15,026 bases of DNA from a virus. Both the position numbers and the translations under genes were made by a program. The stretch lies in the IMG/VR virus record IMGVR_UViG_3300045988_095445; one strand, given 5' to 3'. Under the pieces are notes generated by a model, which ran no database searches, was not told the DNA's origin, and saw only the letters and a list, made by a program, of their open reading frames with translations. Below, one piece after another: positions 2,831 through 15,026 of this stretch; the first letter of the stretch is position 1; each line of letters starts with the position of its first letter.

Positions 2831-2838
2831 ATACGGGG

Positions 2839-3249: not shown

Positions 3250-3283
3250 CCTTTCTGGTTTTTAGGACTGTCCTTGTCCTTTG

Positions 3284-3490: not shown

Positions 3491-3560
3491 AGGTTTTTGA
3501 AAGATTTTTGAGAAATTCGCTGTCGCTGTCTGCCGTTCGTTTCTCTCACTTTCTGAATGT

Positions 3561-3760
3561 ATTTTACCACAAGCAAAAGCAGATTGCAAGCGTCAAATTG
3601 CACAAAAATTGGAATTTTGGGAGAAAGTTTTTGTGCAGAATTTTGCACAAAACGGGGCTGAAATTTTTGTGCAACATTTACAAAGAAAAACTCGGGTCGC
3701 GCCGTTCCTGCGCGACCCGCTCAAATTTTGTATAAAAAAAGAAGGGCCGAAGCCCTTCTT
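3561..3760 (-). promoter_or_regulatory. Intergenic module A. On the minus strand it runs: terminator 1 (3741-3758), GC-hairpin terminator 2 (3693-3719), palindrome TTGTGCA-N6-TGCACAA (3631-3650) plus half-sites TTGCACAA (3598) and TTGTGCAA (3666), then promoter TTGCAA-17-TGgTAAAAT (3561-3589).
   Basis: Read directly. Terminator 1 (AAAAGAAGGGCCGAAGCCCTTCTT) is identical to 6509-6531. Confidence 0.7.
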
Positions 3761-3941
3761 AACAGAAAATACAGTTATCCAGAAAATCAAACAGGTGTTC
3801 ATCCTCAATGGGAACATTTACCAGCATATTTCCATCTTCGTCAATATCATCATGACACCATCCTATACGCTCAATAATTTGAATTGCCATGTAAACGGCA
3901 TCTGCACACAGAGAAGAGGTATATACAATTTTTGTTACCAT
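3759..3941 (-). CDS. Small protein, 60 aa (MVTKIVYTSSLCADAVYMAIQIIERIGWCHDDIDEDGNMLVNVPIEDEHLFDFLDNCIFC).
   Basis: The 111-aa track ORF 3759-4094 is a fusion artefact. The real start is ATG 3941, with SD GAGGAGG 6 nt upstream, right after the TAA of the upstream gene. Confidence 0.6.
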   Translation of the reverse strand: MVTKIVYTSSLCADAVYMAIQIIERIGWCHDDIDEDGNMLVNVPIEDEHLFDFLDNCIFC

Positions 3942-3942
3942 T

Positions 3943-4134
3943 TTATTCCTCCTCGAAATCATCAACCCCATATTGTCTCTGATATTCGTCACAGTCAAAC
4001 CATGGCTCACCCAAAGAGCAACAAAGTGATTCCGTGTCAAAATCTGGACAGATAGTATCATAGATTTGTTCTGGATCCATGCCTTCCTCGGCATAATGCG
4101 GGCAACTCCACCGCATACAATGAACCTGAGACAT
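3943..4134 (-). CDS. Small acidic Cys-rich protein, 63 aa (six Cys, possible Zn-binding).
   Basis: ORF with TAA stop and SD AAAGGA. Stop-start adjacent to the 60-aa gene. Confidence 0.55.
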   Translation of the reverse strand: MSQVHCMRWSCPHYAEEGMDPEQIYDTICPDFDTESLCCSLGEPWFDCDEYQRQYGVDDFEEE

Positions 4135-4148
4135 ATTATTTCCTTTCT

Positions 4149-4176
4149 GCCGGGCGGGGCTTTAAGCCCCTACCCG
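4149..4176 (-). terminator. Hairpin CCGGGCGGGGCTT-TAA-AGCCCCTACCCGG.
   Basis: Stem GGGGCT/AGCCCC plus an outer CCGGG/CCCGG pairing, immediately downstream of the exonuclease stop. Confidence 0.5.
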
Positions 4177-4986
4177 GATAGTTGGAATTGAACGCATACT
4201 TGCGGAAAGCTGACGCTGAAAATCTGTCATAGGAGGAAATTCTCTCTTATTCTCATACAGAGCCTTTCTCATGGGCTTATGTTGACGCATACAGTACCAC
4301 ATGATTTCCGCCTCAATGAGAACATCTTCAAGCCCCGTATGACTTTCCTCAAAATCGGTATTTCCAGAGATAAACCGCCACACGATTTCCGCAGTCTTAC
4401 GAGGAACGCCATTGGCCTGGATATATCCATTTTCCTGACAGAATTTCTTATAAGTGGGCATATTGCAGATAACATCTTGTGTCATCTTCATAATGTCCCA
4501 AATTTCCACACTGTCAAACGGGAACCAGTAGCGAAACTTAGAGCAAGTGACCCATCGTTGAATGACCCGCAGAGCGTTATCGTCAAACCGGGCATTATAA
4601 GCAGCCACCTCTTTAATGCCGTATCGCTCGATAGTATCAAGCATAGCCTGCCGGATTTCATAGGTTGTAGCCATCTTACGAGTGCCGGCCCGCAATTCCT
4701 CAACATAGCGGGGGATTTTCCAATTATAATAGGCCGTCCGCATTAAATCCCGCTCGTCATTGAAAATGTCCCGATTTACAAAACTTGCAGTTTCGTAAAT
4801 ATTGCCCTTGGTATCTACTACGGCCCAGCCGCAGTCATATACCAGTACATTTGACATATCCATGCGGACACGCTCAGGAGTGATAATCTCCCCATCTTCC
4901 CCGATTTCAGCGGGAACGGTTTCGGTTAGTGTGTTGGCGGTTTCAGTGTCAACCACCAGCACATAATGTCTGCGTTTATCAATCAT
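4162..4986 (-). CDS. DEDDh-family 3'-5' exonuclease (DnaQ/RNase T-like), 274 aa.
   Basis: Exo I VLVVDTETAN, Exo II VAAYNARFDDNAL and Exo III HTGLEDVLIEAEI (H-x4-D) in canonical order. Confidence 0.75.
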   Translation of the reverse strand: MIDKRRHYVLVVDTETANTLTETVPAEIGEDGEIITPERVRMDMSNVLVYDCGWAVVDTKGNIYETASFVNRDIFNDERDLMRTAYYNWKIPRYVEELRAGTRKMATTYEIRQAMLDTIERYGIKEVAAYNARFDDNALRVIQRWVTCSKFRYWFPFDSVEIWDIMKMTQDVICNMPTYKKFCQENGYIQANGVPRKTAEIVWRFISGNTDFEESHTGLEDVLIEAEIMWYCMRQHKPMRKALYENKREFPPMTDFQRQLSASMRSIPTIRVGA

Positions 4987-5020
4987 AATCTATCAAGTCC
5001 TTTCTTCTCTTGATGGTATT

Positions 5021-5049
5021 ATTATAGCACATTTAAGGCTTGGTGTCAA
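5021..5049 (-). promoter_or_regulatory. Consensus promoter TTGACA-17-TGcTATAAT (minus strand).
   Basis: -35 at 5044-5049 and -10 at 5021-5026, spacer 17. Confidence 0.7.
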
Positions 5050-5211
5050 GAGGAAAAGGAAATTTTGTTGCGATTTATTGCAAGCTACTGGACGATGGAA
5101 TGGCCTATTCCAAAGGCGCTCGCTCGACTTATAACACAAATACCCATTTTCTTCCTTTACTTTCTAAGAGTTCGCGACCTCTTGATTTCTTGGCCTCTCC
5201 CTCCTGACATG

Positions 5212-5380
5212 ATAATAATACCATACTTTTGGGAGAATTGCAAGATGGCAAATTGCACAACTTTTTGCCACCAAAATTGTGCAACATCTACAAAGAAAAA
5301 AATTCGGCGCGCCGCGTGCGTCAGCGCGCCGCTCAAATGACAATAAAAAAATACCCCTCTCATTATTGAGAGGGGTATTT
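5212..5380 (-). promoter_or_regulatory. Intergenic module B: terminator hairpin 5353-5378, GC-hairpin terminator 5305-5331 (identical to 6461-6487), TTGCACAA (5253) and TTGTGCAA (5278), promoter TTGCAA-17-TGgTATTAT (5215-5243).
   Basis: Read directly. Confidence 0.7.
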
Positions 5381-5581
5381 TTAATATCCAATATATTCCC
5401 TGTTGATTAGTTCATCTATTCCGTATACCAGATCATCAAGAGAGATAGGAAAGTCATCATCAATTTCATTATCTTCCATATTCCTGCTAATCTGGCTTAT
5501 GAGGATTGACGCATCTCTCAAGGCTTTTTTCTCTATCGAACCGAGAACAAGCCTATTAACTTTCCGAATTTCCATTTGCAA
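5381..5581 (-). CDS. Small acidic protein, 66 aa.
   Basis: ORF with TAA stop. No promoter of its own, so it is probably co-transcribed with the upstream genes. Confidence 0.45.
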   Translation of the reverse strand: MQMEIRKVNRLVLGSIEKKALRDASILISQISRNMEDNEIDDDFPISLDDLVYGIDELINREYIGY

Positions 5582-5596
5582 AACTCCCTTTCTTTG

Positions 5597-5622
5597 CGGG
5601 GCGGGGATTTTAACCCCGCCCT
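5597..5622 (-). terminator. Hairpin GGGCGGGG-ATTTTAA-CCCCGCCC. It is a near-copy of the 2806-2830 hairpin.
   Basis: 8-bp GC stem after the stop of gene 5628-6089. Confidence 0.55.
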
Positions 5623-5627
5623 CTTAC

Positions 5628-6089
5628 TCAGTTTAGATTGTTGATATATTCGATTATGTCTGTCTCTCCTGGATTTATTGTATCTCCTAAATGCCAACCG
5701 TGCCTAATTTTATCATTATCATCAAAAAGGATAAACGGCGGTTCATAGAAACTACGGAATACACATTTGGCTTTGGTCGTTCCGTATGCTACACAATGGC
5801 ATTTATGAGCCGGGAATTTATACCTTGCAAGCCATTCCTTTTTAGCGGCTGTGACTGCTTTCTTATATTCGGGAGTGCTTTCGGGCGGTAGCCATGTAAT
5901 TACTCTAATTTCCCATCCGTTATTGATTGCCTTTAGAAGCGCATTTCTAAGAGCTTCCATGTCCCACATAGGGGCCGCGTCTCGGAATGGGGTGGGGTCT
6001 CCATTGCGGAGTTTTTCGAGCCAATTAGGGACTGCATACAAGTCCGCGATAGTTCCATCCATGTCAAAGCAGAGCATTTTTTTAGTCAT
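5628..6089 (-). CDS. HAD-superfamily hydrolase, probably a 5'(3')-deoxyribonucleotidase-like (NT5C family) nucleotidase, 153 aa.
   Basis: Motif I FDMDGTIAD (DxDGT), Ser/Thr motif (VITW), Lys (KKEW) and motif IV FDDND. The start overlaps the upstream gene end. Confidence 0.6.
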   Translation of the reverse strand: MTKKMLCFDMDGTIADLYAVPNWLEKLRNGDPTPFRDAAPMWDMEALRNALLKAINNGWEIRVITWLPPESTPEYKKAVTAAKKEWLARYKFPAHKCHCVAYGTTKAKCVFRSFYEPPFILFDDNDKIRHGWHLGDTINPGETDIIEYINNLN

Positions 6090-6095
6090 TGTATA

Positions 6096-6344
6096 TCAAT
6101 CTCCTTTTGTTTTATTATACCACTTGTTGCCTACCTTGTCAACAAGTTTTTCAAAAAAAGTTTTACGCCGACATACCTTATAAGGTATTGACATATAATC
6201 TACATAGATCAGAGGATCTTGTAAAAGCACAGTCTGTATATAAATCTCATAATTAACCGGGGTAGTAGTATGCCCGAATTGTCTATGATAAATTTCAGCT
6301 ACGGTTAAGTATTCGTTAGGCTGAATAAACTTTGAAGGTTTCAT
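6096..6344 (-). CDS. Hypothetical protein, 82 aa. Its 3' end encodes the promoter and SD for the HAD gene.
   Basis: Strong SD GGAGGGG. TGA stop 6 nt before the HAD ATG. Confidence 0.55.
   Translation of the reverse strand: MKPSKFIQPNEYLTVAEIYHRQFGHTTTPVNYEIYIQTVLLQDPLIYVDYMSIPYKVCRRKTFFEKLVDKVGNKWYNKTKGD
6114..6142 (-). promoter_or_regulatory. Consensus promoter TTGACA-17-TGgTATAAT embedded inside the coding sequence of gene 6096-6344. It drives the HAD gene.
   Basis: -35 at 6137-6142, -10 at 6114-6119, spacer 17. Confidence 0.55.
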
Positions 6345-6371
6345 TTAGTATCCCCTCCTTTTTCTGTACTA

Positions 6372-6531
6372 ATAATACCATAATTTAAGGATAATTGCAA
6401 GATGGCAAATTGCACAAGATTTCAAGACAAAAATTGTGTAGAACTTACAAATAAGAAAACTCGGCGCGCCGCGTGCGTCAGCGCGCCGTCGAATTTTTAG
6501 TATATAAAAAAGAAGGGCCGAAGCCCTTCTT
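6372..6531 (-). promoter_or_regulatory. Intergenic module C: terminator 6512-6529 (same as 3741-3758), GC hairpin 6461-6487 (same as 5305-5331), TTGCACAA (6409), TTGTGTAG (6433), promoter TTGCAA-17-TGgTATTAT (6372-6400).
   Basis: Read directly. Confidence 0.7.
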
Positions 6532-6990
6532 TTATCTTTCAGCCATATTTGAAAAATACCTTGCGACTAGTTTAACCATTTCATGAATAGATTCATCATT
6601 GTGCAAATTTTTGTAACAAATGAATCCAATTTGTCCACCATCAGAAAAAATGGGAGTAATAAACATAGATTTCCACGCTGTCGCAGGTTGGCTGATATTA
6701 CTCCATTCATCTGGTGGTATAGAAATTTTGAAAGAACTAGGCCCGCTTAAAAGTTTATCTGAATCGAAGATTGCCGCGGAAATGTGATTAACAGAAAGGG
6801 CATTTCGCATTTCGTGGGCATGGTCAACGAAAAAAGATAGTGGAGAATATTTCTTGAAGGCTATACAGTCGCCATCAAGAAAAATTTCCATAGGGTCGCC
6901 TTCTCTAATTCGCATACTCCTACGAATTTCTCTAGGAATAACAATACGCCCTAGGTCATCAATATGTCGAACAATACCAACAGCTCTCAT
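6532..6990 (-). CDS. spoVT: SpoVT/AbrB-family regulator. It has an N-terminal swapped-hairpin DNA-binding domain and a SpoVT-like (GAF-type) C-terminal domain, 152 aa.
   Basis: GIVRHIDDLGRIVIPREIRRSMRIREGDPMEIFLDGDCIAFKKYSPLS is near-identical in pattern to B. subtilis SpoVT (GIVRRIDDLGRVVIPKEIRRTLRIREGDPLEIFVD...KKYSPIS). The C-terminal ...PIFSDGGQIGFICY...LVARYFSNMAE resembles SpoVT ...PIVANGDPIGAVVIF...FLARQME. Confidence 0.85.
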   Translation of the reverse strand: MRAVGIVRHIDDLGRIVIPREIRRSMRIREGDPMEIFLDGDCIAFKKYSPLSFFVDHAHEMRNALSVNHISAAIFDSDKLLSGPSSFKISIPPDEWSNISQPATAWKSMFITPIFSDGGQIGFICYKNLHNDESIHEMVKLVARYFSNMAER

Positions 6991-6999
6991 TTTTTTATC

Positions 7000-7033
7000 G
7001 CGGGAGCATAGAATACAAGTCCTATACTCCCGC
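7000..7033 (-). terminator. Weak hairpin GCGGGAG-N20-CTCCCGC between genes 7045-7443 and 6532-6990. It is possibly an attenuator.
   Basis: 7-bp stem with a long loop. No promoter lies between the two genes. Confidence 0.3.
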
Positions 7034-7044
7034 GCCTCCTTTCC

Positions 7045-7443
7045 TTAAAGCGATTTCCGCAGTTCGTCTAGTAGAGTAGACAGAGTTTTCATATCGCCGC
7101 CCATTTCCAGCTTGACACAAATCAGGCTTGCATTTTCCTCTACCCACTTTGTCACAGTGGACAGCTCTTCATCCATCGTTTGATTGATGGGGTTGTAAAG
7201 ACTGCACATATTTGACTTGGCGCACTCCGGGTCATAATAGCGGCGGAGCTTATATCCCTTTGCCGTGGCGCGCTCAATAATCTTTGTATTCAGCGCCTCA
7301 ATCTCTTTCCGGCCTTCCTCGATAAAATCCTCAAACTCTTTCATAGCTCCCGCATACTTGGCTCGGATTTCCTCTCGTTTGGCGTTCGCAATCTTGTTGA
7401 CCTCGTCATTGATATAGGCTTCAATCCTCTTAGTAACACGCAT
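7045..7443 (-). CDS. Hypothetical protein, 132 aa.
   Basis: ORF with TAA stop and the promoter just upstream. Confidence 0.55.
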   Translation of the reverse strand: MRVTKRIEAYINDEVNKIANAKREEIRAKYAGAMKEFEDFIEEGRKEIEALNTKIIERATAKGYKLRRYYDPECAKSNMCSLYNPINQTMDEELSTVTKWVEENASLICVKLEMGGDMKTLSTLLDELRKSL

Positions 7444-7501
7444 TTCTAAAACTCCCTTTCTTATTTTAATTTATTTTTGGGGCTGCCCCTTCCATAGTCT
7501 T

Positions 7502-7530
7502 ATTGTACCACAGAAGGGGCAATTTGTCAA
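7502..7530 (-). promoter_or_regulatory. Promoter TTGACA-17-TGgTACAAT.
   Basis: -35 at 7525-7530, -10 at 7502-7507. Confidence 0.7.
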
Positions 7531-7537
7531 CCCCTTT

Positions 7538-7768
7538 TTACAAGGAAAGTAAATCCATCATAGTCATTTCATCAACCGCCTTATCGGCTTCCTCATCGAA
7601 AATACCCTTGATAATATCGGCCGCGTCATCGGGAGTACATATGCCGATCCGCAGGAATTTCCCCAAAGACTGGAGCATTGCCTGTGCTGCTTCTCCTGGG
7701 CAGAACTCCTCCATGGTCTTATGCAGAAGAATAATCCCCTGTCTATCCTGCTCAGTCATTCTATACAT
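7538..7768 (-). CDS. Hypothetical acidic protein, 76 aa.
   Basis: ORF with TAA stop. Confidence 0.5.
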   Translation of the reverse strand: MYRMTEQDRQGIILLHKTMEEFCPGEAAQAMLQSLGKFLRIGICTPDDAADIIKGIFDEEADKAVDEMTMMDLLSL

Positions 7769-7819
7769 AGCAATATTTCCTTTCTGGTTTAATGAGTTTT
7801 CCTTCTCTTTACATTATTG

Positions 7820-7848
7820 ATTATACCACTGTTTAAGCGGTTTGTCAA
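7820..7848 (-). promoter_or_regulatory. Promoter TTGACA-17-TGgTATAAT.
   Basis: -35 at 7843-7848, -10 at 7820-7825. Confidence 0.7.
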
Positions 7849-7852
7849 CCCT

Positions 7853-7990
7853 TTACATCAAATTTTTTGCCAAATATGCGAACATTAGAATTTCTGCGGC
7901 AAACATGATTTCAAGCCGAATACAGCCTTTTTGAGCAGCCGCCATTAACTGCCATGCAAGGCAGGCCACAAACGCAATCAAAACAATCAT
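7853..7990 (-). CDS. Possible 45-aa hydrophobic peptide (MIVLIAFVACLAWQLMAAAQKGCIRLEIMFAAEILMFAYLAKNLM).
   Basis: ORF below the track cutoff. The SD is 22 nt from the ATG and the ORF lies between a terminator and the next promoter, so it may not be expressed. Confidence 0.2.
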   Translation of the reverse strand: MIVLIAFVACLAWQLMAAAQKGCIRLEIMFAAEILMFAYLAKNLM

Positions 7991-8023
7991 TGTGAAGGTA
8001 GTTATATATATACTCCTTTTCTG

Positions 8024-8050
8024 GTTAAGAGGGTTTATACCCTCTTAACC
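8024..8050 (-). terminator. Hairpin GGTTAAGAGGG-TTTATA-CCCTCTTAACC overlapping the stop of gene 8035-8268.
   Basis: 11-bp perfect stem with the TAA stop in the loop. Confidence 0.55.
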
Positions 8051-8268
8051 TCGATAATCTCCATATCGAAATCTTCCCAATATGCGCCCATGAGAAGGTC
8101 ATGCCGCAAGTCCCCTTCATTCTCATAGTCCATATCTTCCAGAATTTGGCTCCACTCGCTTTCGGAATACTGGGCCTTGAGCCAGTCCCATCCCGCATGG
8201 CGTGCGCCAGTTTCAGTATCAGAAACGCCGATAATCTTTTCTCTACTGTCAGCCATTACCAGATACAT
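8035..8268 (-). CDS. Hypothetical acidic Trp-rich protein, 77 aa.
   Basis: ORF with SD AAAAGGAGA and TAA stop. Confidence 0.55.
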   Translation of the reverse strand: MYLVMADSREKIIGVSDTETGARHAGWDWLKAQYSESEWSQILEDMDYENEGDLRHDLLMGAYWEDFDMEIIEVKRV

Positions 8269-8321
8269 AACTCATTCTCCTTTTGTTTCGAGGGCTTTTG
8301 TTCTCCCCTCTTGATGATACA

Positions 8322-8505
8322 AGTATAACAGATAGCAGATAGAAAGTCAAGCAATTTTGGGAAAAAATCTTCCGTCAGATTGCACAACAATTCGAGCCTA
8401 AAATTGTGCAAATTGCCTCTTGATAAAAAATTCCGGCCGCGCCTGTGGTGCACGGCCGGGCGAACGAATAAAAAAAAAGAACCTCCTGAATTTCAGGAGG
8501 TCATT
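8322..8505 (-). promoter_or_regulatory. Intergenic module D: terminator 8481-8504 (ACCTCCTGA-ATT-TCAGGAGGT), GC hairpin 8433-8459, TTGTGCAA (8404), TTGCACAA (8380), promoter TTGACT-17-TGtTATACT (8322-8350).
   Basis: Read directly. Confidence 0.7.
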
Positions 8506-8543
8506 AATTTCTGCATACCAACAACTTCCTTTCTTTTGAGAAG

Positions 8544-8777
8544 TCAATCGGCATTTTCAACAATCTTTAATCCGTTTGCTTGGATAATTTTCATAGCTTC
8601 TTCAAGCGAGGAATCAACCGATCCGCAGTCGATACAGATATATTTTCTGCCATCTTTTACCATAGTAGTAAAATAGTATTCTTGGCCAGAAACAAGGCCC
8701 ATCTACTCTCGCAGTCTTACTGGAATCATGATACGCCCACTTGAATCTAATTTCCTTGAGAAAGTAGTTTCTTGCAT
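8544..8777 (-). pseudogene. AbrB-fold (swapped-hairpin) gene with one in-frame TAG at 8703-8705. It is either an amber-recoded gene (one 77-residue protein) or a nonsense pseudogene.
   Basis: MQETTFSRKLDSSGRIMIPVRLRE-[TAG]-MGLVSGQEYYFTTMVKDGRKYICID... aligns colinearly with AbrB RKVDELGRVVIPIELRR-T-LGIAEKDALEIYVDD, with the TAG occupying one residue position. There is no SD upstream of the ATG. Stop is TGA at 8544. Confidence 0.55.
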
Positions 8778-9014
8778 TTTGATAAATAAATTCTAGTGAC
8801 CTAGGCTCGTGCGAAAAACGACTCCATCACGGGAATCGCCGATTTAGAACAATCGGAAGGAACATTTACCACTCGCAAGGCATTTTCTGGCAGAACTGAG
8901 ACATAGGGCAATTTTACAAGAATCCTAGTTCAAACAGAACTCTAAAATAACCGCGAGTGCTTTCAGCACTTCTAAGGTCATTAGAAAAACTCCTTTCTTT
9001 ATTTTTCTATAATT

Positions 9015-9043
9015 ATTATAATATATTTTTTTGAAAAAATCAA
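9015..9043 (-). promoter_or_regulatory. Promoter TTGATT-17-TATAAT, followed by SD AAAGGAG and an 18-aa ORF (8923-8979) containing hairpin GAAGTGC-TGAAA-GCACTTC, then about 200 nt untranslated.
   Basis: -35 at 9038-9043, -10 at 9015-9020. Leader-peptide-like arrangement upstream of the AbrB-like gene. Confidence 0.45.
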
Positions 9044-9182
9044 TAGGGCCGGCATTACGCCAGCCCTAATCTCTGTAACCAAACCAGATGGTATTTACCA
9101 ATGTGAAGTAGAACTGTGCCATATCCCTTATTTGTCCAAACAGTGGAACCGATAGGATATGTATGCGGTAAACGCTCAATAC

Positions 9183-9398
9183 TCACTTTAGTTCCACCTC
9201 CTCGAAAGCTCCAATTTTTAGCAGATAATTATATAAGGCTCTATCTTGTTTGTCGCCGGTATTAAAATCAAGAGTACGAACACAGCCGGTAACATTGGAA
9301 TTAAGAGGATGATTCAAACACCAACCAGCCATATTACAAATTGTGTCTCCAAACTCCGCAGATTTTTCTACACTTTCAAATTTAATAACAGCAATCAT
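9183..9398 (-). CDS. Hypothetical protein, 71 aa.
   Basis: Strong SD AAAGGAGGAAT. TGA stop. Confidence 0.55.
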   Translation of the reverse strand: MIAVIKFESVEKSAEFGDTICNMAGWCLNHPLNSNVTGCVRTLDFNTGDKQDRALYNYLLKIGAFEEVELK

Positions 9399-9421
9399 AT
9401 TTATTCCTCCTTTTTATCATG

Positions 9422-9450
9422 GGGAGTGGAGGTTTGTGGCCTCCACTCCC
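9422..9450 (-). terminator. Hairpin GGGAGTGGAGG-TTTGTGG-CCTCCACTCCC between co-oriented genes. It may act as an attenuator.
   Basis: 11-bp stem. The next gene's SD follows immediately with no promoter. Confidence 0.5.
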
Positions 9451-9460
9451 GCAAGTTTTC

Positions 9461-9700
9461 TTAATCATCTACATAAATGATTAAATTGTTATCTCTTGCC
9501 TCAATGCCGGTTACCTGAAGTCCTAGAACCCATTCCTTAGATATCTCGATTACGTCTCCTCCCAGAGTTATTCTACCATCAGGTAATTCATGGTAATGAG
9601 CTTGGGTATTCTTATTGATAATTTCAAATCCCTCCCCGTCAAAGAACATAGTATCTTCTGCAAGCGGAGAAAGTAACCAAGCAACCATATCTAAAGTCAT
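9461..9700 (-). CDS. Hypothetical acidic protein, 79 aa.
   Basis: ORF with SD AAAGGAAG and TAA stop. Confidence 0.55.
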   Translation of the reverse strand: MTLDMVAWLLSPLAEDTMFFDGEGFEIINKNTQAHYHELPDGRITLGGDVIEISKEWVLGLQVTGIEARDNNLIIYVDD

Positions 9701-9754
9701 TTTTTTTACTTCCTTTCAAATTCTTTTTGTGGCCTGTCCCTTTGGACAAGTATA

Positions 9755-9955
9755 TAATAACACATGGCAAAAGGAATGTCAAGTAATTTCGGGAGAAAAA
9801 CTTTCGTCGAATTGCACAGACTTTCGGTCATATAATTGTTGAAATTGCCGAATAAATAAAAATTCGGGCCGCGGCGCACGCTGGCGGCCCGGCGAAAAGT
9901 CAATATGGAAAAGTGCATAAAAATGACTGGCAATCTTTGTGTAGATTGCCAGTCA
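9755..9955 (-). promoter_or_regulatory. Intergenic module E: terminator 9925-9953 (11-bp stem), GC hairpin 9865-9891, TTGCACAG (9812), promoter TTGACA-17-TGtTATTAT (9755-9783).
   Basis: Read directly. Confidence 0.7.
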
Positions 9956-9967
9956 AGTATTATTCCT

Positions 9968-10201
9968 TTACAGCTCCATGGTTTCCATGAGATAGCCCGT
10001 GCCCATCGGCACCTCCCGCAGATTGCTGGGACTTATACGCAACTTATATTTCCTATTGATTTTATTCGCCGCACTTGTCTTATCTCTCGCTTGGACAATT
10101 ACTGGTATATGGAGTTTATTTAGAGTGGGCTTATTAAGACTGAAATATCCCATCTCTCTGCGCTTGCGGCCCATGGCGTCGATATAAGTCCCTCTATACA
10201 T
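9968..10201 (-). CDS. Hypothetical basic protein, 77 aa.
   Basis: SD GGAGG 5 nt before the ATG. TAA stop followed by a terminator. Confidence 0.55.
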   Translation of the reverse strand: MYRGTYIDAMGRKRREMGYFSLNKPTLNKLHIPVIVQARDKTSAANKINRKYKLRISPSNLREVPMGTGYLMETMEL

Positions 10202-10212
10202 TTTTCCTCCTA

Positions 10213-10359
10213 TTATTTAGTCATGAGAACGAACATATTATATTCGCTGTGCTGTGGGTTTGGCTCACAGTTATCTGCCACTATATCAGCCCAACTAAGA
10301 ACTGTCCAGAGTAGGAGAGCGGCACAAATGCCGCCTCCTATCCGCTTAATAATTCTCAT
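10213..10359 (-). CDS. Small membrane or secreted peptide, 48 aa (MRIIKRIGGGICAALLLWTVLSWADIVADNCEPNPQHSEYNMFVLMTK).
   Basis: Its ATG overlaps the TGA of the upstream gene (ATGA). The N-terminal hydrophobic segment suggests a membrane location. It is below the track cutoff. Confidence 0.4.
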   Translation of the reverse strand: MRIIKRIGGGICAALLLWTVLSWADIVADNCEPNPQHSEYNMFVLMTK

Positions 10360-10658
10360 TTCCATTTCTTTGCCTCCTGTTCTTTAACCCATTCAGTACC
10401 GATTGTATCTCCGACCATAGCAACCTTATATTCGTCTTCGCTTACAATTCTGGTATGCAGATTGCTATTGATAAACTTTCTATTGATATAAGCCCAGTGT
10501 GGCATATAGGCCACTCGCATGGCATTAAAAGCATCCAGGTCTAAGATGATGCCGTCCTCTACCTCTGCGGAACGCACATTCATCTTATACCGCAAAAGTT
10601 TAATAAATTCACGCTTTCTAAAAGTAGGCCCAACGAACCATTTAATATAATTGTTCAT
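10356..10658 (-). CDS. Hypothetical protein, 100 aa.
   Basis: ORF with SD GGGGAGAAAGGA and TGA stop. Confidence 0.55.
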   Translation of the reverse strand: MNNYIKWFVGPTFRKREFIKLLRYKMNVRSAEVEDGIILDLDAFNAMRVAYMPHWAYINRKFINSNLHTRIVSEDEYKVAMVGDTIGTEWVKEQEAKKWK

Positions 10659-10704
10659 AGTCTTTTATCCTTTCTCCCCGTATAGCCGTTAGGTCAGCTT
10701 CTTT

Positions 10705-10851
10705 TTAATCTACGATTTCTCCACTGGATAAATCCACAATCCAATGATTAGGATTGACTATCTCGTGACTGACCTTCCATCTTGCCATTGAAAGGGTGGA
10801 TGGTTCATAATAGCGCATTTTCTCATTGGCTAAAACTTGTAACTGATACAT
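10705..10851 (-). CDS. Small protein, 48 aa (MYQLQVLANEKMRYYEPSTLSMARWKVSHEIVNPNHWIVDLSSGEIVD).
   Basis: SD AAAGGGG 8 nt upstream. It is the first gene of a four-gene unit. Below the track cutoff. Confidence 0.35.
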   Translation of the reverse strand: MYQLQVLANEKMRYYEPSTLSMARWKVSHEIVNPNHWIVDLSSGEIVD

Positions 10852-10880
10852 ATAGTATGCCCCTTTCTTTTAATTATTAT

Positions 10881-10917
10881 AACCCTGCCTTGCCTTGTGT
10901 TTTGCAAGGCAGGGTTT
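10881..10917 (-). terminator. Hairpin AACCCTGCCTTGC-N-GCAAGGCAGGGTT.
   Basis: 13-bp stem after the stop of gene 10926-11300. Confidence 0.65.
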
Positions 10918-10925
10918 ATAAACTG

Positions 10926-11300
10926 TTATCCTCTAATTTCTTCTTCTTGGGTCTTTGTCGCCCAATCAAAAGAGGTACGAACATCGGAAGGTCTGCGGAA
11001 TTGCTCTGCTTCGGCCTCTGTCCCGCCTAATGCCATAGCATAGGCTTTCCAGTCAACCGTTCCTTTTGCGGTAGTTTCTTTATATACCACCGCTTTCGCC
11101 TTACTTTGCATTTGTACCGTGCCATATAGATAACTTGTTTTGTCCGTAGCCTTAAAAGCCTTACCTAATCTGGAGAATAGCTCTTTAGCCTTAGCCTTAG
11201 CTGCTTTCTCCGCCGCCTCCGCCGCAGACTTAGCCATCTTAGCGGCCATATACTCCATAATAATGGCTCGATCTTCATTGGTAAAATCAATCTTTTTCAT
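10926..11300 (-). CDS. Hypothetical Ala/Lys-rich protein, 124 aa. The true start is the internal ATG at 11300, not 11363.
   Basis: SD AAAGGGAG lies inside the track's N-terminal extension, so the track start is wrong. Contains coiled-coil-like AAKMAKSAAEAAEKAAKAKAKE. Confidence 0.55.
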   Translation of the reverse strand: MKKIDFTNEDRAIIMEYMAAKMAKSAAEAAEKAAKAKAKELFSRLGKAFKATDKTSYLYGTVQMQSKAKAVVYKETTAKGTVDWKAYAMALGGTEAEAEQFRRPSDVRTSFDWATKTQEEEIRG

Positions 11301-11353
11301 ACTCTTTTGACTCCCTTTCTTTTTGTGGTGTGGTTCTCTTTTGTTCTGTCTGT

Positions 11354-11479
11354 ATTGTATCAAACCTTTAGCAGTTTGTCAATACCTTTTTTGAAATTTT
11401 TTTAATTTTCAAAGTGCCGTGCTTTTGTCTCTGTCCTACTGGACAAGTCCAGTTTACCACCAAAATGCTCACTTGTCAA
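11354..11479 (-). promoter_or_regulatory. Two tandem promoters: TTGACA-17-TGaTACAAT (11354-11382) and TTGACA-17-TGgTAAACT (11451-11479).
   Basis: Spacers counted directly. Confidence 0.65.
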
Positions 11480-11504
11480 TAGTTTTTTTGAAATTTCTTT
11501 CTCT

Positions 11505-11570
11505 CTCTTTTGCACAAAATAAATAACATCTTGTTGTGCAGTTTGCACAAATCCTTTACGCGCGCGTATT
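11505..11570 (-). promoter_or_regulatory. Partial module F: TTGCACAA (11510), palindrome TTGTGCA-GTT-TGCACAA (11534-11550) and short GC palindrome TACGCGCGCGTA (11557-11568).
   Basis: Read directly. Confidence 0.55.
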
Positions 11571-11574
11571 CCTT

Positions 11575-11660
11575 TAGGGGGCGTGCTTTCTTGCTTTCGT
11601 ACTTTAACGAGTGAAAGAGGCCAACTACACTTCAATACTTTACCATGTGAAAGAGGGGCG
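11575..11660. repeat. Two ~22-nt direct repeats, TACTTTA(A/C)C(G/C)(A/G)(G/T)GTGAAAGAGG, bracketed by GGGGCGTG at both ends.
   Basis: Copies at about 11599-11621 and 11634-11656. GGGGCGTG at 11576 and 11656. Confidence 0.4.
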
Positions 11661-11753
11661 TGTATTTTGGGAAAAACTGGAAATTTTTTTGTAAAATCGT
11701 TCTGCCACGCCATTTCAAAATCTAAATCGACTTTTCAATCTCAATAACGAAAA

Positions 11754-11778
11754 AGAGAGAAGAACTCACTTCTTCTCT
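11754..11778 (-). terminator. Hairpin GAGAGAAG-N9-CTTCTCTC followed by a T-run. It shares the stem sequence of the 672-697 terminator.
   Basis: 8-bp stem followed by TTTTTCGTTATTG on the minus strand. Confidence 0.6.
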
Positions 11779-12188
11779 CCGCATTTACACTTCTTTTTTA
11801 AATTATATATAATATGATATTCTCCACAGACTTTGCCGTCAAACCATACTAATACTTTATCCATCGTCGGTTGCCTCAAAACTAAAAATCAAATTATATC
11901 CATCCTCTAGTTTAATATTAATCGCATCAGATCTCCACATTGTAGGAATATACTCTAGCCTTGGATAACGATTGTTCTGTCAACAATAGTAAAATCAAAA
12001 CTATCCTAATTCTTCGCTCTACAAACTACTCCGCTATCCAATTATGGAATAAGTCTCTATAGAGGCTTATTCCTATATGATATATAAGACCGTCAACTTC
12101 TTTACTTCCCCAATATAACTTTTCCAATAGAAGCATGGGAAACTTGTGCGGCAAGTTTCCCTAGTCTCACCTCGCAATAATTAATTGC

Positions 12189-12713: not shown

Positions 12714-12893
12714 TTAATTATCCCAATCTTCAAATAAAGTGTGTAAACTATTTGTTTCCGCCGCCAATCTCTTTAAATATTCTTTAAGAATTTTATTTTC
12801 TTTAACTTTAATTGCATAATCGCAAGTATTGTCGCAGTCTGGTGTGTACTACCGACCGAATCTATTATAACAATAATCAATACAAGGACACAT
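12714..12893 (-). CDS. Small Cys-rich protein, 59 aa (MCPCIDYCYNRFGR-[TAG]-YTPDCDNTCDYAIKVKENKILKEYLKRLAAETNSLHTLFEDWDN) with one in-frame TAG.
   Basis: The ATG sits 1 nt after the TAA of the upstream gene (TAAAATG). No TAA/TGA until the end, and TAG at codon 15. Below the track cutoff under the standard code. Confidence 0.45.
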
Positions 12894-12894
12894 T

Positions 12895-13248
12895 TTACTC
12901 ATATTTACACCCATTCATTCTACAGTCTATTGTGCATTGCCCTGACGCTCCTTCACAAGGAATAGCATCAGGATAGTATTCAAAATAAGACGAGGTTAAT
13001 AGAACTTCATATCCAAGTTCCCGCAGTATTCTTTCTGCGACATATCTATCTCTTAATTTAATCCATTCTTCTCTATTTACTTTTGTTTCTTCATATATTT
13101 TTCGAGATTCTTCCATATCTATTGTTATGATACCATCGGTGTTAGTTTTAAATACTGAAGGACTTTGTGTATGATAAAATTTTCGAAAGGGATTGTTAAT
13201 ATGAAGAACTTCTTCAGCATATTTGTCAAAATCTCCCGAAAATTTCAT
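12895..13248 (-). CDS. Hypothetical Cys-rich protein, 117 aa (C-terminal CEGASGQCTIDCRMNGC). The true start is ATG 13248, overlapping FolD's TAA (TAATG).
   Basis: The track ORF 12895-13341 is N-terminally over-extended into FolD. It is translationally coupled to FolD. Confidence 0.55.
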   Translation of the reverse strand: MKFSGDFDKYAEEVLHINNPFRKFYHTQSPSVFKTNTDGIITIDMEESRKIYEETKVNREEWIKLRDRYVAERILRELGYEVLLTSSYFEYYPDAIPCEGASGQCTIDCRMNGCKYE

Positions 13249-14033
13249 TATCTTTGCGCCTGTTTCGCTAACTATAAACAATTTTTCATCAACCCCAATC
13301 TTGTTAATAGACCTACTCCTCCGGGGACAGGAGTTGACCATACATTATTTCTTTTTGCGATTTCATCAATTTCTACAAAATCACCAAGAATAATTCCTGC
13401 TTCATTTCTGCGAATACCAACATCTATAACAATAGCGTTAGGACAGGCTTCTCTTGTTAAGCTAAATTTTCCTACCGCAGAGACAATTAAATCTGCTTGC
13501 CTTGTTAAATAGAGTTTTGTATTTATATCTGTTTTGCTATGACATACTGATACGGTCATATTTCTATCCAGTAGAGCTTTAGCCATTGGCTTTCCTACAA
13601 TATCGCTTCTTCCCAAAACAACAGCAGATTTACCTTCGTAGTTAAAACCACATTCATCCAAATAGTCTATAATTCCTCTTACTGTTGCTGGAGTAATATT
13701 GCTCATAGGATTTAAACCATCCGCATCTTTAGAGATAGGTATTTGACTATAATTGAAATCAATTCCATTTGCTACTGGCATTTGAACTATTACCGCATCC
13801 CAGTCTTTCGCATGGCCTAAGAGTAATCTTAACTCTACTGAACTATTCGCTCTAAACACTTCTGCTTCCCAACCAAGAGCATTAAAGTCTTTTATTTTAT
13901 TACGAATATAAATTTGATTTGCGGGATCCTAGGCTGTTGCGTCGATAATCATGAGTGATGGAACATTACCACTAATCTCCCGCAATTTGTTTACCTATTG
14001 TTGAAAATATTCTTTTATATTAATCTATTGCAT
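13248..14033 (-). CDS. folD: FolD (bifunctional methylene-THF dehydrogenase/cyclohydrolase), 261 aa when TAG is read as sense. It has four in-frame TAG codons (14025, 13995, 13929, 13272) and a TAA stop at 13248.
   Basis: The track fragment 13272-13859 shows GKSAVVLGRSDIVGKPMA...VIDVGIRRNE...TPVPGGVGLLT, the canonical FolD C-domain. Upstream in-frame translation continues colinear with the FolD N-terminus (...NVPSLMIIDATA[TAG]DPANQIYIRNKIKDFNALGW) back to ATG 14033 with SD GGAGG. Only TAGs interrupt the frame. Confidence 0.8.
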
Positions 14034-14352
14034 CTGGATCAAGCCTCCAAGGATCACTAGTATCGTAATCAATCATTTCATAGAAAGATATTTCATTTTC
14101 ATTAACTTCTAATACCTAGTGAGGAATACACTATACTTCATAATCAAAATCTTTATTAATATGGTAAGAAGTATATATATGAATAGCAATAGGTCTAGGA
14201 TCATTAACTCCCTAAATATCCCATAAACTTATTGCTTTATTTTGGAAGATTTCCTAAGCATACTATGGAGATATAGCAATACTGATTATTAAGATATTAA
14301 AATAATACTATGCTTTTTCCGGTAAATCTAAATATGGTTCGTCAAAGAACAT
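14020..14352 (-). CDS. Hypothetical protein, 110 aa, with six in-frame TAGs and a TAA stop. It is the first gene of the leftward operon.
   Basis: ATG 14352 with SD AGGAG. 111 codons contain six TAGs and no TAA/TGA. The translation looks protein-like (..DPRPIAIHIYTSYHINKDFDYEV..). Its end overlaps the FolD start. Confidence 0.5.
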
Positions 14353-14389
14353 TGGCAAACAAATCTCCTATCTTATTTTTTATAATTAT

Positions 14390-14454
14390 ATTATAGCATT
14401 TTTAAATAAATTAATCAAATAAGATTTGACAATCTAGTTTTTTTTTGTTATTAT
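14390..14454. promoter_or_regulatory. Divergent back-to-back consensus promoters: minus-strand TTGATT-17-TGcTATAAT (14390-14418) and plus-strand TTGACA-17-TATTAT (14426-14454).
   Basis: Spacers counted directly. The plus -10 abuts ATG 14455, so the real start of the plus gene is ATG 14479. Confidence 0.7.
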
Positions 14455-14478
14455 ATGAGTATAAAAGGAGATGACAGT

Positions 14479-15026
14479 ATGATAAAATTAGATTATACTA
14501 TTGAGTCTCCAGAAGAACGGAAGGCGCTTGTCGAAAAAATAATCGCAGAAAATCCGAACCTTAGTTCGAGTTATTTAGAAATATTAGCAGATTATTTAGT
14601 TCTATGTATGGAAAAGCAAGAGAAGAAAGAAAAGAATATATTAACAGATAATAGAATGGCTACTGTTAATAAAAGAGAATGTTCTTTCGAAGGGCTTGCG
14701 TCATAGATGGAAAATGGCGAGGATGGCATTTATGGTTTAATGTCAGAAAATAAAAATGTTATATTTTAGCCAAAGATTTCTATTACACAGAAAGATTTAG
14801 ATACTATACCATGTTTAAAATAGTTGAGAGAAACCATTAATGTCTGGGAGGGCGCTTTAAAACGCGCTGCTGGGACAAAATAGGCATATATGATGAAAAA
14901 AGCATTAATAGAGATGCGAAAAGATTAGTATATCATTAAGCAAGCATATTAGAAACCTATTATACCATGTAAATTAACGAGATCCGTAAGAACTCATATT
15001 CCTCTTGATGATTAGAGTTATCTTAA
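14479..15026 (+). CDS. Partial gene (more than 180 codons, continuing past the window end). It has seven in-frame TAGs and no TAA/TGA.
   Basis: SD AAGGAG 14465-14470 with ATG 14479. The track ORF stops at TAG 14704. The same frame stays open through TAGs at 14704, 14767, 14821, 14881, 14926, 14950 and 15011 to the window end. Confidence 0.55.

What the first reader, a model, noticed from the sequence alone, without database searches (positions are those of the whole stretch)
12714..15026. Amber (TAG) codon reassignment: a conserved FolD and neighbouring genes are interrupted only by TAG, never by TAA or TGA
FolD is recognisable over its whole length only if four in-frame TAGs are translated. 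Three of the TAGs fall at alignable positions in the N-domain, for example ...DATA[TAG]DPAN versus ...LIGDDPAS in B. subtilis FolD. The fourth TAG sits 8 codons before the real TAA stop, and that TAA is coupled to the next ATG as TAATG.

The upstream 110-codon ORF has six TAGs and no TAA/TGA. The downstream 59-aa Cys-rich ORF has one TAG. The divergent plus-strand gene has seven TAGs in about 110 codons with no TAA/TGA.

In AT-rich DNA a pseudogene would accumulate TAA at least as often as TAG. A TAG-only pattern is the signature of genetic-code-15-like recoding (TAG translated as a sense codon, typically Gln). That recoding has been described in some gut phages but remains rare.
Basis: partly seen in the sequence, partly recalled or inferred. 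Interest (0 to 1): 0.9.

Follow-up and report, generated by a model that had tools for sequence, protein, structure and literature searches.

The report
Gut phage reads TAG as glutamine
This stretch comes from a common human-gut phage of about 147 kb that reads the stop codon TAG as glutamine, and near-identical genomes carry the matching suppressor tRNA; the finding is real, but this recoding is already well documented in gut phages, including this phage group.

Summary
Five ORFs in 12714-15026 carry 18 in-frame TAGs and no TAA or TGA (P about 5e-12). Reading TAG as sense restores a full two-domain FolD-like protein and raises coding density from 0.42 to 0.88.

The window is part of a 143-149 kb human-gut siphophage. 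It is SPbeta-like and related to Enterococcus phage EF1 and the Phassvirus group. Its neighbouring terminase, portal and other genes carry 3-13 TAGs each.

Across 80 relatives, in-frame stops in the terminase are TAG only, apart from four relatives that have TGA instead. Residues aligned with TAG are Gln in 32-49% of cases, against a 3% background. Contigs 99.4% identical to the finding region carry a canonical tRNA with anticodon CUA about 42 kb from FolD. All 21 TAG-free genes in the window end in TAA or TGA.

It is not rare. It has been described in gut phages since 2014, confirmed by proteomics in crAss-like phages, and reported in 2023 for this phage group. It is a new member of a known kind, of low interest.

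The oddest feature lies just outside the finding. The neighbouring PARG and PTH2 genes are shredded by 18 short deletions, which I could not explain.

The parts
14479..15026 (+). First 182 codons of a 348-aa protein (full length in relatives, which carries 11 TAGs). Seven in-frame TAGs in the window, at 14704, 14767, 14821, 14881, 14926, 14950 and 15013. PHROGs labels the family 'sigma factor'; that function is not verified.
   Evidence: Translation. phrog_5767 at E = 1.5e-38 over residues 31-346, crossing all the TAGs. No Pfam, NCBIfam or PDB support. In about 73 relatives, codons 76, 97, 115 and 150 are Gln in 52-56 of them and TAG in the rest.
14426..14454 (+). Sigma-70-type promoter-like site, TTGACA-17-TATTAT with an extended -10 TG (11 of 12 matches), upstream of the 14479 gene. 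A weaker site at 14418-14390 faces the minus-strand operon.
   Evidence: Consensus scan only. Not evidence of function.
14020..14352 (-). 110-aa ORF of unknown function with six in-frame TAGs and no TAA or TGA. It overlaps the FolD start by 14 nt.
   Evidence: Called as a 110-aa gene in public gene catalogues. No Pfam or PHROG hit. Homologues in only 7 of 80 relatives, with most TAG positions conserved as TAG.
13248..14033 (-). FolD-like methylene-THF dehydrogenase/cyclohydrolase, 261 aa, with four in-frame TAGs (codons 3, 13, 35, 254). Its TAA stop overlaps the next ATG.
   Evidence: PF02882 at 131.7 bits (residues 111-259) and PF00763 at 37.3 bits (residues 5-105), both above their cut-offs. 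phrog_7320 at 9e-50. PDB FolD 3p2o at 2.4e-36, aligned over 6-258 through codons 13, 35 and 254. The YxxxK and GxSxxVGxP motifs are visible in that alignment.
12895..13248 (-). 117-aa gene of unknown function with no TAG, translationally coupled to FolD through TAATG.
   Evidence: The exact protein is present in 1447 blocks of the public assembly collection, so the phage is very widespread.
12714..12902 (-). 62-aa Cys-rich ORF with one TAG (12849-12851). Its status as a gene is uncertain.
   Evidence: Not called in the public gene catalogues. No family hit. Found in 6 close relatives with the TAG conserved. Too little divergence to test for selection.
8544..8777 (-). 77-aa AbrB/antitoxin-like gene with one in-frame TAG (8703-8705). 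It is the only TAG-containing gene in the otherwise TAG-free array of small genes.
   Evidence: phrog_4681 at E = 1.7e-7 over residues 1-58, crossing the TAG at codon 25. Sub-threshold MraZ and MazE Pfam hits span the same stretch.
717..11864 (-). Array of 20 small minus-strand genes with no TAG, each ending in TAA or TGA. The TAG-free 117-aa gene (12895-13248) brings the count to 21. GC is 37-47%, against 29-35% in the TAG-rich part.
   Evidence: Gene calls.

Best explanation
The window is part of a roughly 147-kb tailed phage of the human gut. It is SPbeta-like and related to Enterococcus phage EF1 and the Phassvirus group. Its host is probably a Clostridia-class Bacillota bacterium, though this is not established.

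In this phage TAG is a sense codon for glutamine (genetic code 15). Near-identical genomes carry a tRNA with anticodon CUA, about 30 kb beyond the window's left end. A host enzyme presumably charges it with Gln, and it then decodes TAG. TAA and TGA remain the only terminators.

TAG codons are concentrated in one class of genes: the FolD operon, the divergent 348-aa gene, and the terminase, portal and tail-fibre-like genes. The array of small, presumably early genes avoids TAG both as sense and as stop.

Shown here:
- TAG is translated.
- Gln is the residue it interchanges with in evolution.
- A tRNA(CUA) is present in the lineage.
- TAG does not terminate any gene in the window.

Inferred:
- Which enzyme charges the tRNA.
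- That TAG-bearing genes cannot be made until the tRNA accumulates, that is, a timing switch as Borges et al. proposed.
For: Within the window:
- 18 in-frame TAGs against 0 TAA/TGA in five ORFs, P = 5e-12.
- Coding density rises from 0.42 to 0.88 in the finding region and from 0.33 to 0.98 in the adjacent structural module. There the longest ORF grows from 270 to 581 aa. TAA as sense gives only spurious extension and TGA gives none.
- FolD is recovered end to end by Pfam, PHROGs, NCBIfam and PDB, with alignments crossing the TAGs.
- All 21 TAG-free genes in the window end in TAA or TGA, never TAG.

Source genome:
- The window is 99.7% identical to 143-kb human-gut contigs. It is 95-97% identical to many contigs of 114-149 kb.
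- Neighbouring genes carry TAGs as follows: the 348-aa gene 11, the YonG-like gene 8, the terminase 13, the portal 10, the YonD-like gene 5.

Comparison with relatives:
- In 80 relatives, the terminase has 0-14 in-frame TAGs and never TAA.
- Residues aligned with TAG are Gln in 32% of cases, against a 3.2% background.
- At 11 of the 13 TAG columns of the window's lineage, Gln is the commonest residue. At three of them the only alternatives are Gln or TAG.
- The closest non-TAG codon is CAA or CAG in 38 of 56 columns.
- Pooled over the 348-aa, YonG-like, portal and 110-aa genes, 49% of aligned residues are Gln.

The tRNA:
- A tRNA with anticodon CUA lies at L028 and L033 11100-11175. It is conserved in the more distant L034 and L035. 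Rfam scores it 61 bits as a tRNA.
- It has a canonical cloverleaf, an unpaired 1:72 position, G73, U35 and an encoded CCA.
- It sits on the same IMG/VR contigs that are 99.4% identical to window 12669-15026.

Literature:
- The same recoding with tRNA-Sup(CTA) genes is reported in the related Phassvirus group (PMC10607447).
Against: - There is no protein-level evidence for this phage.
- The tRNA(CUA) was found on contigs 95-99% identical to the window, not on the window's own contig. That contig ends 3.6 kb to the left of the window.
- Sequence alone does not assign the tRNA an isotype with these tools. Its nearest tRNA in the phage is Trp(CCA) at 0.72 identity, against 0.68 for Gln(UUG).
- FolD's own four TAGs align with variable residues in homologues (D, K, E, H), not with Gln.
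- Some TAG columns align mostly with K, E, D, R or L. This is expected at variable sites but is not proof of Gln.
- No release factor motif (GGQHVN) was found in the loci retrieved. How competition with host RF1 is handled is unknown.
- The major capsid gene and its 229-aa neighbour have no TAG, so 'late genes are recoded' is not a clean rule.
Confidence: 0.93

Rival explanations
1. The FolD operon and its neighbours are decaying pseudogenes, and the TAGs are inactivating nonsense mutations.
For: The same window does contain real pseudogenes: PARG and PTH2 at 11818-12674 are broken by 18 deletions.
Against: The TAG-bearing genes have no frameshifts and no TAA or TGA. TAG positions are conserved across lineages that are 67-98% identical in the terminase, and they interchange with CAA and CAG. 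Essential genes (terminase, portal) carry 10-14 TAGs in hundreds of contigs. From 12675 to 15026 there is a single 1-nt intergenic indel relative to relatives.
Confidence: 0.01
2. TAG is translated, but as something other than glutamine. Candidates are pyrrolysine (ARAGORN labels the tRNA 'Pyl'), Trp, Lys, Glu or Tyr.
For: ARAGORN's label is 'tRNA-Pyl (cta)'. The tRNA is slightly closer overall to the phage's tRNA-Trp than to its tRNA-Gln. Lys and Glu are the next most common residues at TAG columns, at 14% and 10%.
Against: ARAGORN appears to assign the label from the anticodon (my knowledge). The tRNA has a normal D-loop with GG, a TTCGAATC T-loop and a 5-bp anticodon stem, unlike known tRNA-Pyl (my knowledge). 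Gln is enriched 10-fold over background, while Lys and Glu are enriched only 1.3-1.5-fold. Trp never aligns with TAG, and Tyr is depleted. U35, G73 and an unpaired 1:72 position are the features by which E. coli GlnRS accepts amber suppressors such as supE and su7 (my knowledge).
Confidence: 0.04
3. The in-frame TAGs are artefacts of assembly or sequencing, or the contig is a chimera of two genomes. The second idea is suggested by the GC step from about 42% to about 32% inside the window.
For: GC drops from 0.40-0.47 in 2000-11000 to 0.29-0.35 in 12500-15000.
Against: The same join and the same TAGs occur in dozens of independent assemblies from ENA, Logan and IMG/VR. The 117-aa protein next to FolD is found in 1447 blocks of the collection. 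The GC step follows gene class: the small-gene array has GC-rich terminator hairpins, and the TAG-rich genes are AT-rich.
Confidence: 0.01

Closest known systems
Phassvirus group: phAss-1 (OQ749652) and related metagenomic genomes such as BK048656_ctOa11 (147,880 bp). Babkin et al. 2023, PMC10607447. NCBI taxon 'Caudoviricetes code 15 clade'.
   Same: Human-gut siphophages of 130-150 kb in one monophyletic group with Enterococcus phage EF1. TAG is read as Gln in the terminase, tail and other genes. They have large tRNA arrays that include tRNA-Sup(CTA), and no dedicated aminoacyl-tRNA synthetase was found. The terminase here is 44% identical to that of phAss-1 and about 50% identical to those of the EF1, H1 and VRE9_4 phages.
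   Different: Not the Phassvirus genus itself: GC is about 37% against 44.5%, terminase identity is only 44%, and megablast finds no match. One tRNA(CUA) was found so far, against two or three in Phassvirus. I could not test whether it is the same as one of the divergent genomes listed in that paper, because those records are not in the collections available.
'Agate' clade of recoded phages. Borges et al., bioRxiv 10.1101/2021.08.26.457843; journal version Nat Microbiol 2022, which I did not read here.
   Same: Genomes of about 154 +/- 27 kb. A single clade holds standard-code, TAG-recoded and TGA-recoded lineages. Among the 80 relatives here, some terminases have 0 TAGs, some have up to 14, and four have in-frame TGA at a Trp column. 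Recoded structural modules are scattered around the genome, and early and replication genes are mostly free of the recoded codon.
   Different: Membership was not tested, because no Agate sequence was available. RF2 was reported in two TAG-recoded Agate phages; none was seen in the roughly 60% of this genome that I searched.
Code-15 crAss-like phages, validated by metaproteomics. Peters et al. 2022, PMC9523058.
   Same: [quoted passage not shown] The evidence type that is missing here (peptides across TAG) exists for them.
   Different: An unrelated phage order (Crassvirales, Bacteroidota hosts, podovirus-like). The phage here is SPbeta-like with YonB, YonD and YonG-type structural genes.
Bacterial FolD (bifunctional methylene-THF dehydrogenase / methenyl-THF cyclohydrolase) and phage FolD family phrog_7320.
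   Same: Two-domain architecture over the full length. The YxxxK and GxSxxVGxP motifs are present. PDB FolD entries match at E = 1e-36 to 1e-25.
   Different: It is divergent. Its best NCBIfam score of 162 bits is far below every equivalog cut-off. It is 261 aa, against about 285 aa. It is encoded with four TAG codons.

Membership tests
Genetic code 15 (TAG = Gln) phage | Conserved genes are interrupted by in-frame TAG only, and alignments to homologues run through the TAGs. | tested here: met
   18 TAGs and 0 TAA/TGA. FolD, the 348-aa gene, the terminase and the portal are aligned across their TAGs.
Genetic code 15 (TAG = Gln) phage | Positions homologous to TAG are predominantly Gln (CAA/CAG) in relatives. 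| tested here: met
   Gln is 32% (terminase) and 49% (four other genes pooled), against a 3.2% background. The nearest non-TAG codon is CAA or CAG in 38 of 56 columns.
Genetic code 15 (TAG = Gln) phage | TAG is not used as a terminator. | tested here: met
   The first in-frame stop of all 21 TAG-free window genes is TAA or TGA.
Genetic code 15 (TAG = Gln) phage | The genome encodes a suppressor tRNA with anticodon CUA. | tested here: met
   tRNA(CUA) at L028 and L033 11100-11175, on contigs 99.4% identical to the finding region. Not seen on the window's own contig, which is truncated.
Genetic code 15 (TAG = Gln) phage | Peptides with Gln at TAG positions (proteomics). | not testable with these tools
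   This needs metaproteomics of samples that carry the phage.
Genetic code 15 (TAG = Gln) phage | Release-factor manipulation (phage RF2 or loss of RF1). This is an accessory feature, not a universal one. | tested here: inconclusive
   No GGQHVN-type motif in any retrieved locus. About 40% of the genome was not retrieved.
FolD (PF00763 + PF02882) | Both Pfam domains score above their gathering thresholds. | tested here: met
   PF02882 at 131.7 bits against a threshold of 27. PF00763 at 37.3 bits against 32.8.
FolD (PF00763 + PF02882) | Equivalog-level match to bacterial FolD (NCBIfam cut-offs). | tested here: not met
   Best score 162.5 bits against a cut-off of 445. It is a divergent family member, and its enzymatic function is inferred, not shown.
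Pyrrolysine decoding system | Atypical tRNA-Pyl architecture, plus pylS and pylBCD genes. | tested here: not met
   The tRNA has a canonical cloverleaf. No pyl genes appear among the annotated neighbours. Aligned residues are Gln, not Lys-like.
SPbeta-like / EF1 / Phassvirus-related phage group | Terminase, portal and capsid genes homologous to those of the group, and a genome of about 130-150 kb. | tested here: met
   The terminase is 44-50% identical to those of phAss-1, EF1, H1 and Geobacillus E3. The neighbours hit the YonB, YonD_N and YonG_N Pfam families. Contigs are 143-149 kb.
Agate clade (Borges et al.) | Placement within the clade on a terminase tree. | not tested
   No Agate reference sequences were available.

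The most novel reading that the evidence does not exclude
The code switch may sit upstream of late transcription. The divergent 348-aa gene belongs to a family that PHROGs labels 'sigma factor'. It has a near-consensus sigma-70-type promoter-like site, so host RNA polymerase could transcribe it early. But it carries 11 TAG codons, so it could not be translated until the phage tRNA(CUA) accumulates. That tRNA lies at the far end of the tRNA array, about 30 kb away. On this reading TAG works as a translational timer that gates a transcription factor, and with it the FolD operon, rather than only gating structural and lysis proteins.
Probability: 0.2. Interest if true: 0.5.

Novelty: new member of a known kind. 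Interest (0 to 1): 0.2.

Why it matters
In practical terms, any annotation of this very widespread gut phage under code 11 breaks its FolD, terminase, portal and many other genes into fragments. Code 15 must be used. One of the public assemblies still calls FolD as a 195-aa fragment (L003).

In biological terms, it adds a well-supported example in which one phage family holds standard-code, TAG-recoded and TGA-recoded lineages. It also shows an auxiliary folate-metabolism gene written in the recoded alphabet. It does not open a new question, because the phenomenon, its tRNA basis and the timing hypothesis are all published.

Tried and rejected
- Megablast of the whole window against GenBank phages gave no match.
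- tRNA scans of the window and of +/-10 kb around it on 17 contigs found nothing. The tRNA array and the tRNA(CUA) appeared only after walking about 30 kb leftwards through IMG/VR.
- I could not look up the TAG-containing 110-aa protein by exact sequence.
- An odd 117-nt tRNA next to the two tRNA-Gln genes was considered as a possible hidden suppressor. It was rejected because it contains no CUA in any plausible anticodon position.
- I looked for ribozymes (theta/HDV-like, as in PMC10879173) next to the tRNA(CUA). No match to any Rfam family.
- The 226-aa plus-strand ORF at 1817-2497, which has 2 TAGs and is called in public catalogues, was rejected as a gene. It lies antisense to a T5orf172-domain gene and has no family hit.
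- The 'sigma factor' label for the 348-aa gene has no support from Pfam, NCBIfam or PDB sequences.
- The host could not be identified. Hits in bacterial genome collections are phage-sized contigs binned into MAGs of several families.
- A junction-specific probe for the PARG/PTH2 deletion variant found nothing in IMG/VR or the JGI metagenomes.
- The journal version of Borges et al. 2022 is not in the paper library, so I used the preprint.
Full report
**1. The observation**

I re-read 12000-15026 and re-called ORFs under four stop-codon schemes.

- The FolD-like ORF lies on the minus strand at 13248-14033 (261 codons). It has four in-frame TAGs, at codons 3, 13, 35 and 254, and no TAA or TGA. 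Its TAA stop overlaps the next ATG as TAATG.
- The upstream ORF at 14020-14352 has six TAGs.
- The Cys-rich ORF at 12714-12902 has one.
- The divergent plus-strand gene has seven. Its real start is the ATG at 14479, behind an AAAGGAG ribosome-binding site. It continues beyond the window to 348 aa.

In total there are 18 in-frame TAGs against no TAA or TGA. In the other five frames of the same ORFs, TAG is only 23.7% of stop triplets. The chance that all 18 would be TAG is about 5e-12. None of 20,000 shuffles of the FolD ORF avoided TAA and TGA.

Treating TAG as sense raises coverage by ORFs of at least 100 aa from 0.42 to 0.88 in the finding region. Treating TGA as sense changes nothing.

**2. 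What the genes are**

With TAG read as Q, the FolD-like protein matches several libraries:

- Both Pfam FolD domains, above threshold: PF02882 at 131.7 bits over residues 111-259, and PF00763 at 37.3 bits over residues 5-105.
- The phage FolD family phrog_7320, at 9e-50.
- Solved FolD structures, such as 3p2o at 2.4e-36 over residues 6-258.

These alignments pass through the TAGs at codons 13, 35 and 254. The protein is a divergent family member: no NCBIfam equivalog cut-off is reached, with 162 bits against at least 333. In homologues its TAG positions align with variable residues (D, K, E, H). They therefore show read-through but not which amino acid is used.

The 348-aa plus-strand gene matches phrog_5767, labelled 'sigma factor', at 1.5e-38 across all its TAGs. 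It has no Pfam, NCBIfam or PDB support.

The 110-aa, 117-aa and Cys-rich ORFs have no known family.

**3. Where the window comes from**

Exact-protein look-ups place the window on human-gut metagenome contigs of 143-149 kb.

- It is 99.7% identical to MEHT18-1_SAMN06164927 scaffold_6 (143 kb).
- It is 95-97% identical to many other contigs.
- The 117-aa protein occurs in 1447 blocks of the collection, so the phage is very common.

To the right of the window lie, in order, a YonG_N-like gene (8 TAGs), the large terminase (13), an HNH-like gene (3), the portal (10), a YonD_N-like gene (5), a 229-aa gene (0) and a YonB-like capsid gene (0). In this module, ORF coverage rises from 0.33 under code 11 to 0.98 with TAG as sense.

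The terminase is 62% identical to that of a human faecal phage fragment. It is about 50% identical to those of Enterococcus phages VRE9_4, H1 and EF1, 48% to Geobacillus E3, and 44% to phage phAss-1.

phAss-1 and its relatives were described in 2023 as a monophyletic group of 90-150 kb phages, mostly from the human gut. Several of them read TAG as Gln and carry tRNA-Sup(CTA) genes (PMC10607447). NCBI files phAss-1 under 'Caudoviricetes code 15 clade'.

Hits in bacterial genome collections are phage-sized contigs binned into Oscillospiraceae, Eubacterium and Lachnospiraceae MAGs. The host is therefore only loosely indicated as Bacillota.

**4. Which amino acid**

I collected 80 relatives from IMG/VR whose terminases are 67-98% identical, and analysed the terminase codon by codon.

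- In-frame stops are TAG (0-14 per gene) and never TAA. Four relatives have TGA instead.
- Residues aligned with TAG are Gln in 32% of cases, against a background of 3.2%. Next come Lys at 14% (background 9%) and Glu at 10% (background 8%). Trp never appears.
- For the 13 TAG columns of the window's own lineage, Gln is the commonest alternative at 11. At three columns the only states are Gln or TAG.
- Taking one event per column, the closest relative without TAG has CAA or CAG in 38 of 56 columns.

The same holds for the gene inside the finding. Codons 76, 97, 115 and 150 of the plus-strand gene are Gln in 52-56 of about 73 relatives and TAG in the rest. Pooled with the YonG-like, portal and 110-aa genes, 49% of aligned residues are Gln. 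TAG = Gln is well supported.

**5. The decoder**

Neither the window nor the +/-10 kb around it holds any tRNA. Walking leftwards through IMG/VR contigs of the same phage gave, in order:

- an array of about 30 tRNA genes;
- tail-fibre-like genes containing TAGs;
- a tRNA with anticodon CUA at L028 and L033 11100-11175.

The tRNA(CUA) is conserved at the same position in a lineage only 83% identical at protein level. Rfam scores it 61 bits as a tRNA. It folds as a normal cloverleaf, with an unpaired 1:72 position, G73, U35 and an encoded CCA.

ARAGORN's 'Pyl' label appears to rest on the anticodon, and the structure is not Pyl-like. By simple identity the tRNA is no closer to the phage's tRNA-Gln (0.68) than to its tRNA-Trp (0.72). 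Its isotype therefore rests on the codon comparison and on known GlnRS identity rules (my knowledge).

The two IMG/VR contigs that carry it (146 kb and 114 kb) are 99.4% identical to window 12669-15026 and have the same four FolD TAGs. The tRNA lies about 42 kb from FolD, which is about 30 kb beyond the window's left end.

No release-factor GGQ motif occurs in any retrieved locus. About 40% of the genome was not retrieved.

**6. How TAG is distributed**

In the window, 21 genes have no TAG and all of them end in TAA or TGA. The only TAG in the small-gene array is in a 77-aa antitoxin-like gene, whose PHROG alignment crosses it.

TAG-rich genes are AT-rich (GC 29-35%). The TAG-free array is richer in GC (37-47%).

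This matches the published picture, in which recoded codons are concentrated in structural and other late genes while early genes are compatible with either code (preprint 10.1101/2021.08.26.457843). There are exceptions here: the capsid gene has no TAG.

Both divergent transcription units in the finding have sigma-70-like promoter matches. This allows, but does not show, a scheme in which they are transcribed early and translated only once the suppressor tRNA is present.

**7. Rivals**

- Pseudogenisation is excluded. There are no frameshifts and no TAA or TGA, TAG positions are conserved, and the essential terminase and portal carry 10-14 TAGs in hundreds of contigs.
- A different amino acid is unlikely, given the 10-fold Gln enrichment.
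- Assembly artefact or chimera is excluded, because the same sequence recurs in independent ENA, Logan and IMG/VR assemblies.

**8. Novelty**

TAG-to-Gln recoding in gut phages is established.

- It has been proteomically validated in crAss-like phages (PMC9523058).
- It was predicted for about 10% of viral contigs in four Dutch cohorts (PMC9610469).
- It has been described in this phage group (PMC10607447).
- Public gene catalogues already call this FolD as 261 aa.

The family resembles the 'Agate' clade in genome size and in mixing codes 11, 15 and 4, but I could not test membership. This is a new member of a known kind, real but of low interest.

**9. An unexplained neighbour**

Immediately left of the finding, at window 11818-12674, the PARG and PTH2 genes and two small ORFs are intact in relatives but broken here by 18 deletions and no insertions.

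- Their lengths are 129, 11, 26, 13, 11, 46, 18, 13, 12, 13, 11, 12, 13, 198, 14, 42, 21 and 24 nt.
- Junction microhomology is 0-5 nt.
- The blocks retained between them are 98.3% identical to the intact versions.
- Nothing comparable occurs elsewhere in the window.
- Three assemblies share the variant exactly. It is absent from IMG/VR and the JGI metagenomes.

I have no tested explanation for this cluster.

Noticed in passing
window 11818-12674 (compare L004 10576-12058): The PARG_cat_microb and PTH2 (peptidyl-tRNA hydrolase) genes and two small ORFs are intact in relatives. Here they are broken by 18 deletions of 11-198 nt, ten of them 11-14 nt long. There are no insertions and almost no junction microhomology. 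The retained blocks are 98.3% identical to the intact versions. L001, L002 and L003 share the variant exactly; it is absent from IMG/VR and JGI. The cause is unknown. Possibilities are a single template-skipping repair event, or serial escape from a nuclease.
   Followed up: partly
window 1896-1934, 3667-3726, 5249-5338, 6406-6488, 8376-8466, 9808-9898: Repeated intergenic cassettes occur in the small-gene array. Each is a GC-rich hairpin (terminator-like on the minus strand) next to a conserved TTGTGCAA...TTGCACAA-type motif. This suggests that each small TAG-free gene is its own transcription unit with a shared promoter or operator.
   Followed up: partly
window 28-162: Tandem 68-nt repeat containing four copies of a palindrome-like motif, TTTCATGGTATTCTGACAATAC. 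It may be an operator or a replication or packaging site.
   Followed up: no
window 1817-2497 (+) versus 1979-2335 (-): Public catalogues call a 226-aa plus-strand ORF with 2 TAGs here. It is probably spurious, because it lies antisense to a T5orf172/GIY-YIG-like gene (PF10544 at 22.9 bits, cut-off 20). Gene calling under code 15 can lengthen false ORFs.
   Followed up: partly
L026 10346-10666: The phage's tRNA array contains a full-length tmRNA (Rfam RF00023 at 76.8 bits, gathering score 47) that ARAGORN did not report. A ribosome-rescue RNA in a stop-codon-recoded phage may be relevant to stalling at UAG.
   Followed up: no
L026 13042-13158 (also L027, L028, L030, L033, L034, L035): A conserved 117-nt tRNA-like gene (Rfam tRNA at 49.8 bits) sits next to the two tRNA-Gln genes. 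It has normal acceptor, D and T arms but a 44-nt insertion in the anticodon arm and no recognisable anticodon loop. It is too short to be a group I intron.
   Followed up: partly
L026 6003-6060: Twister-P1 ribozyme-like match (51.7 bits, E = 4e-9, below the gathering score of 67.2) ending 6 nt upstream of tRNA-Ser(GCU). It may be a tRNA-processing ribozyme, by analogy with the theta ribozymes of recoded phages (PMC10879173).
   Followed up: no
L083, L084, L096, L097 (terminase genes): Four relatives have in-frame TGA instead of TAG in the terminase. One of these TGAs lies in a column that is Trp in the other 78 sequences. Other relatives have no in-frame stops at all. One phage family therefore holds code 11, code 15 and probably code 4 lineages.
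   Followed up: partly
L004 1-1521 (YonB-like capsid gene and 229-aa gene): The major capsid gene and its neighbour have no TAG, while the adjacent terminase, portal and scaffold-like genes have 5-13. The most abundantly made late proteins may avoid the suppressed codon.
   Followed up: no
L013 11154-11792 (-): In some strains a 212-aa gene with 11 TAGs lies on the opposite strand in the middle of the TAG-free early-gene array. It occupies roughly the position of the window's T5orf172 region.
   Followed up: no
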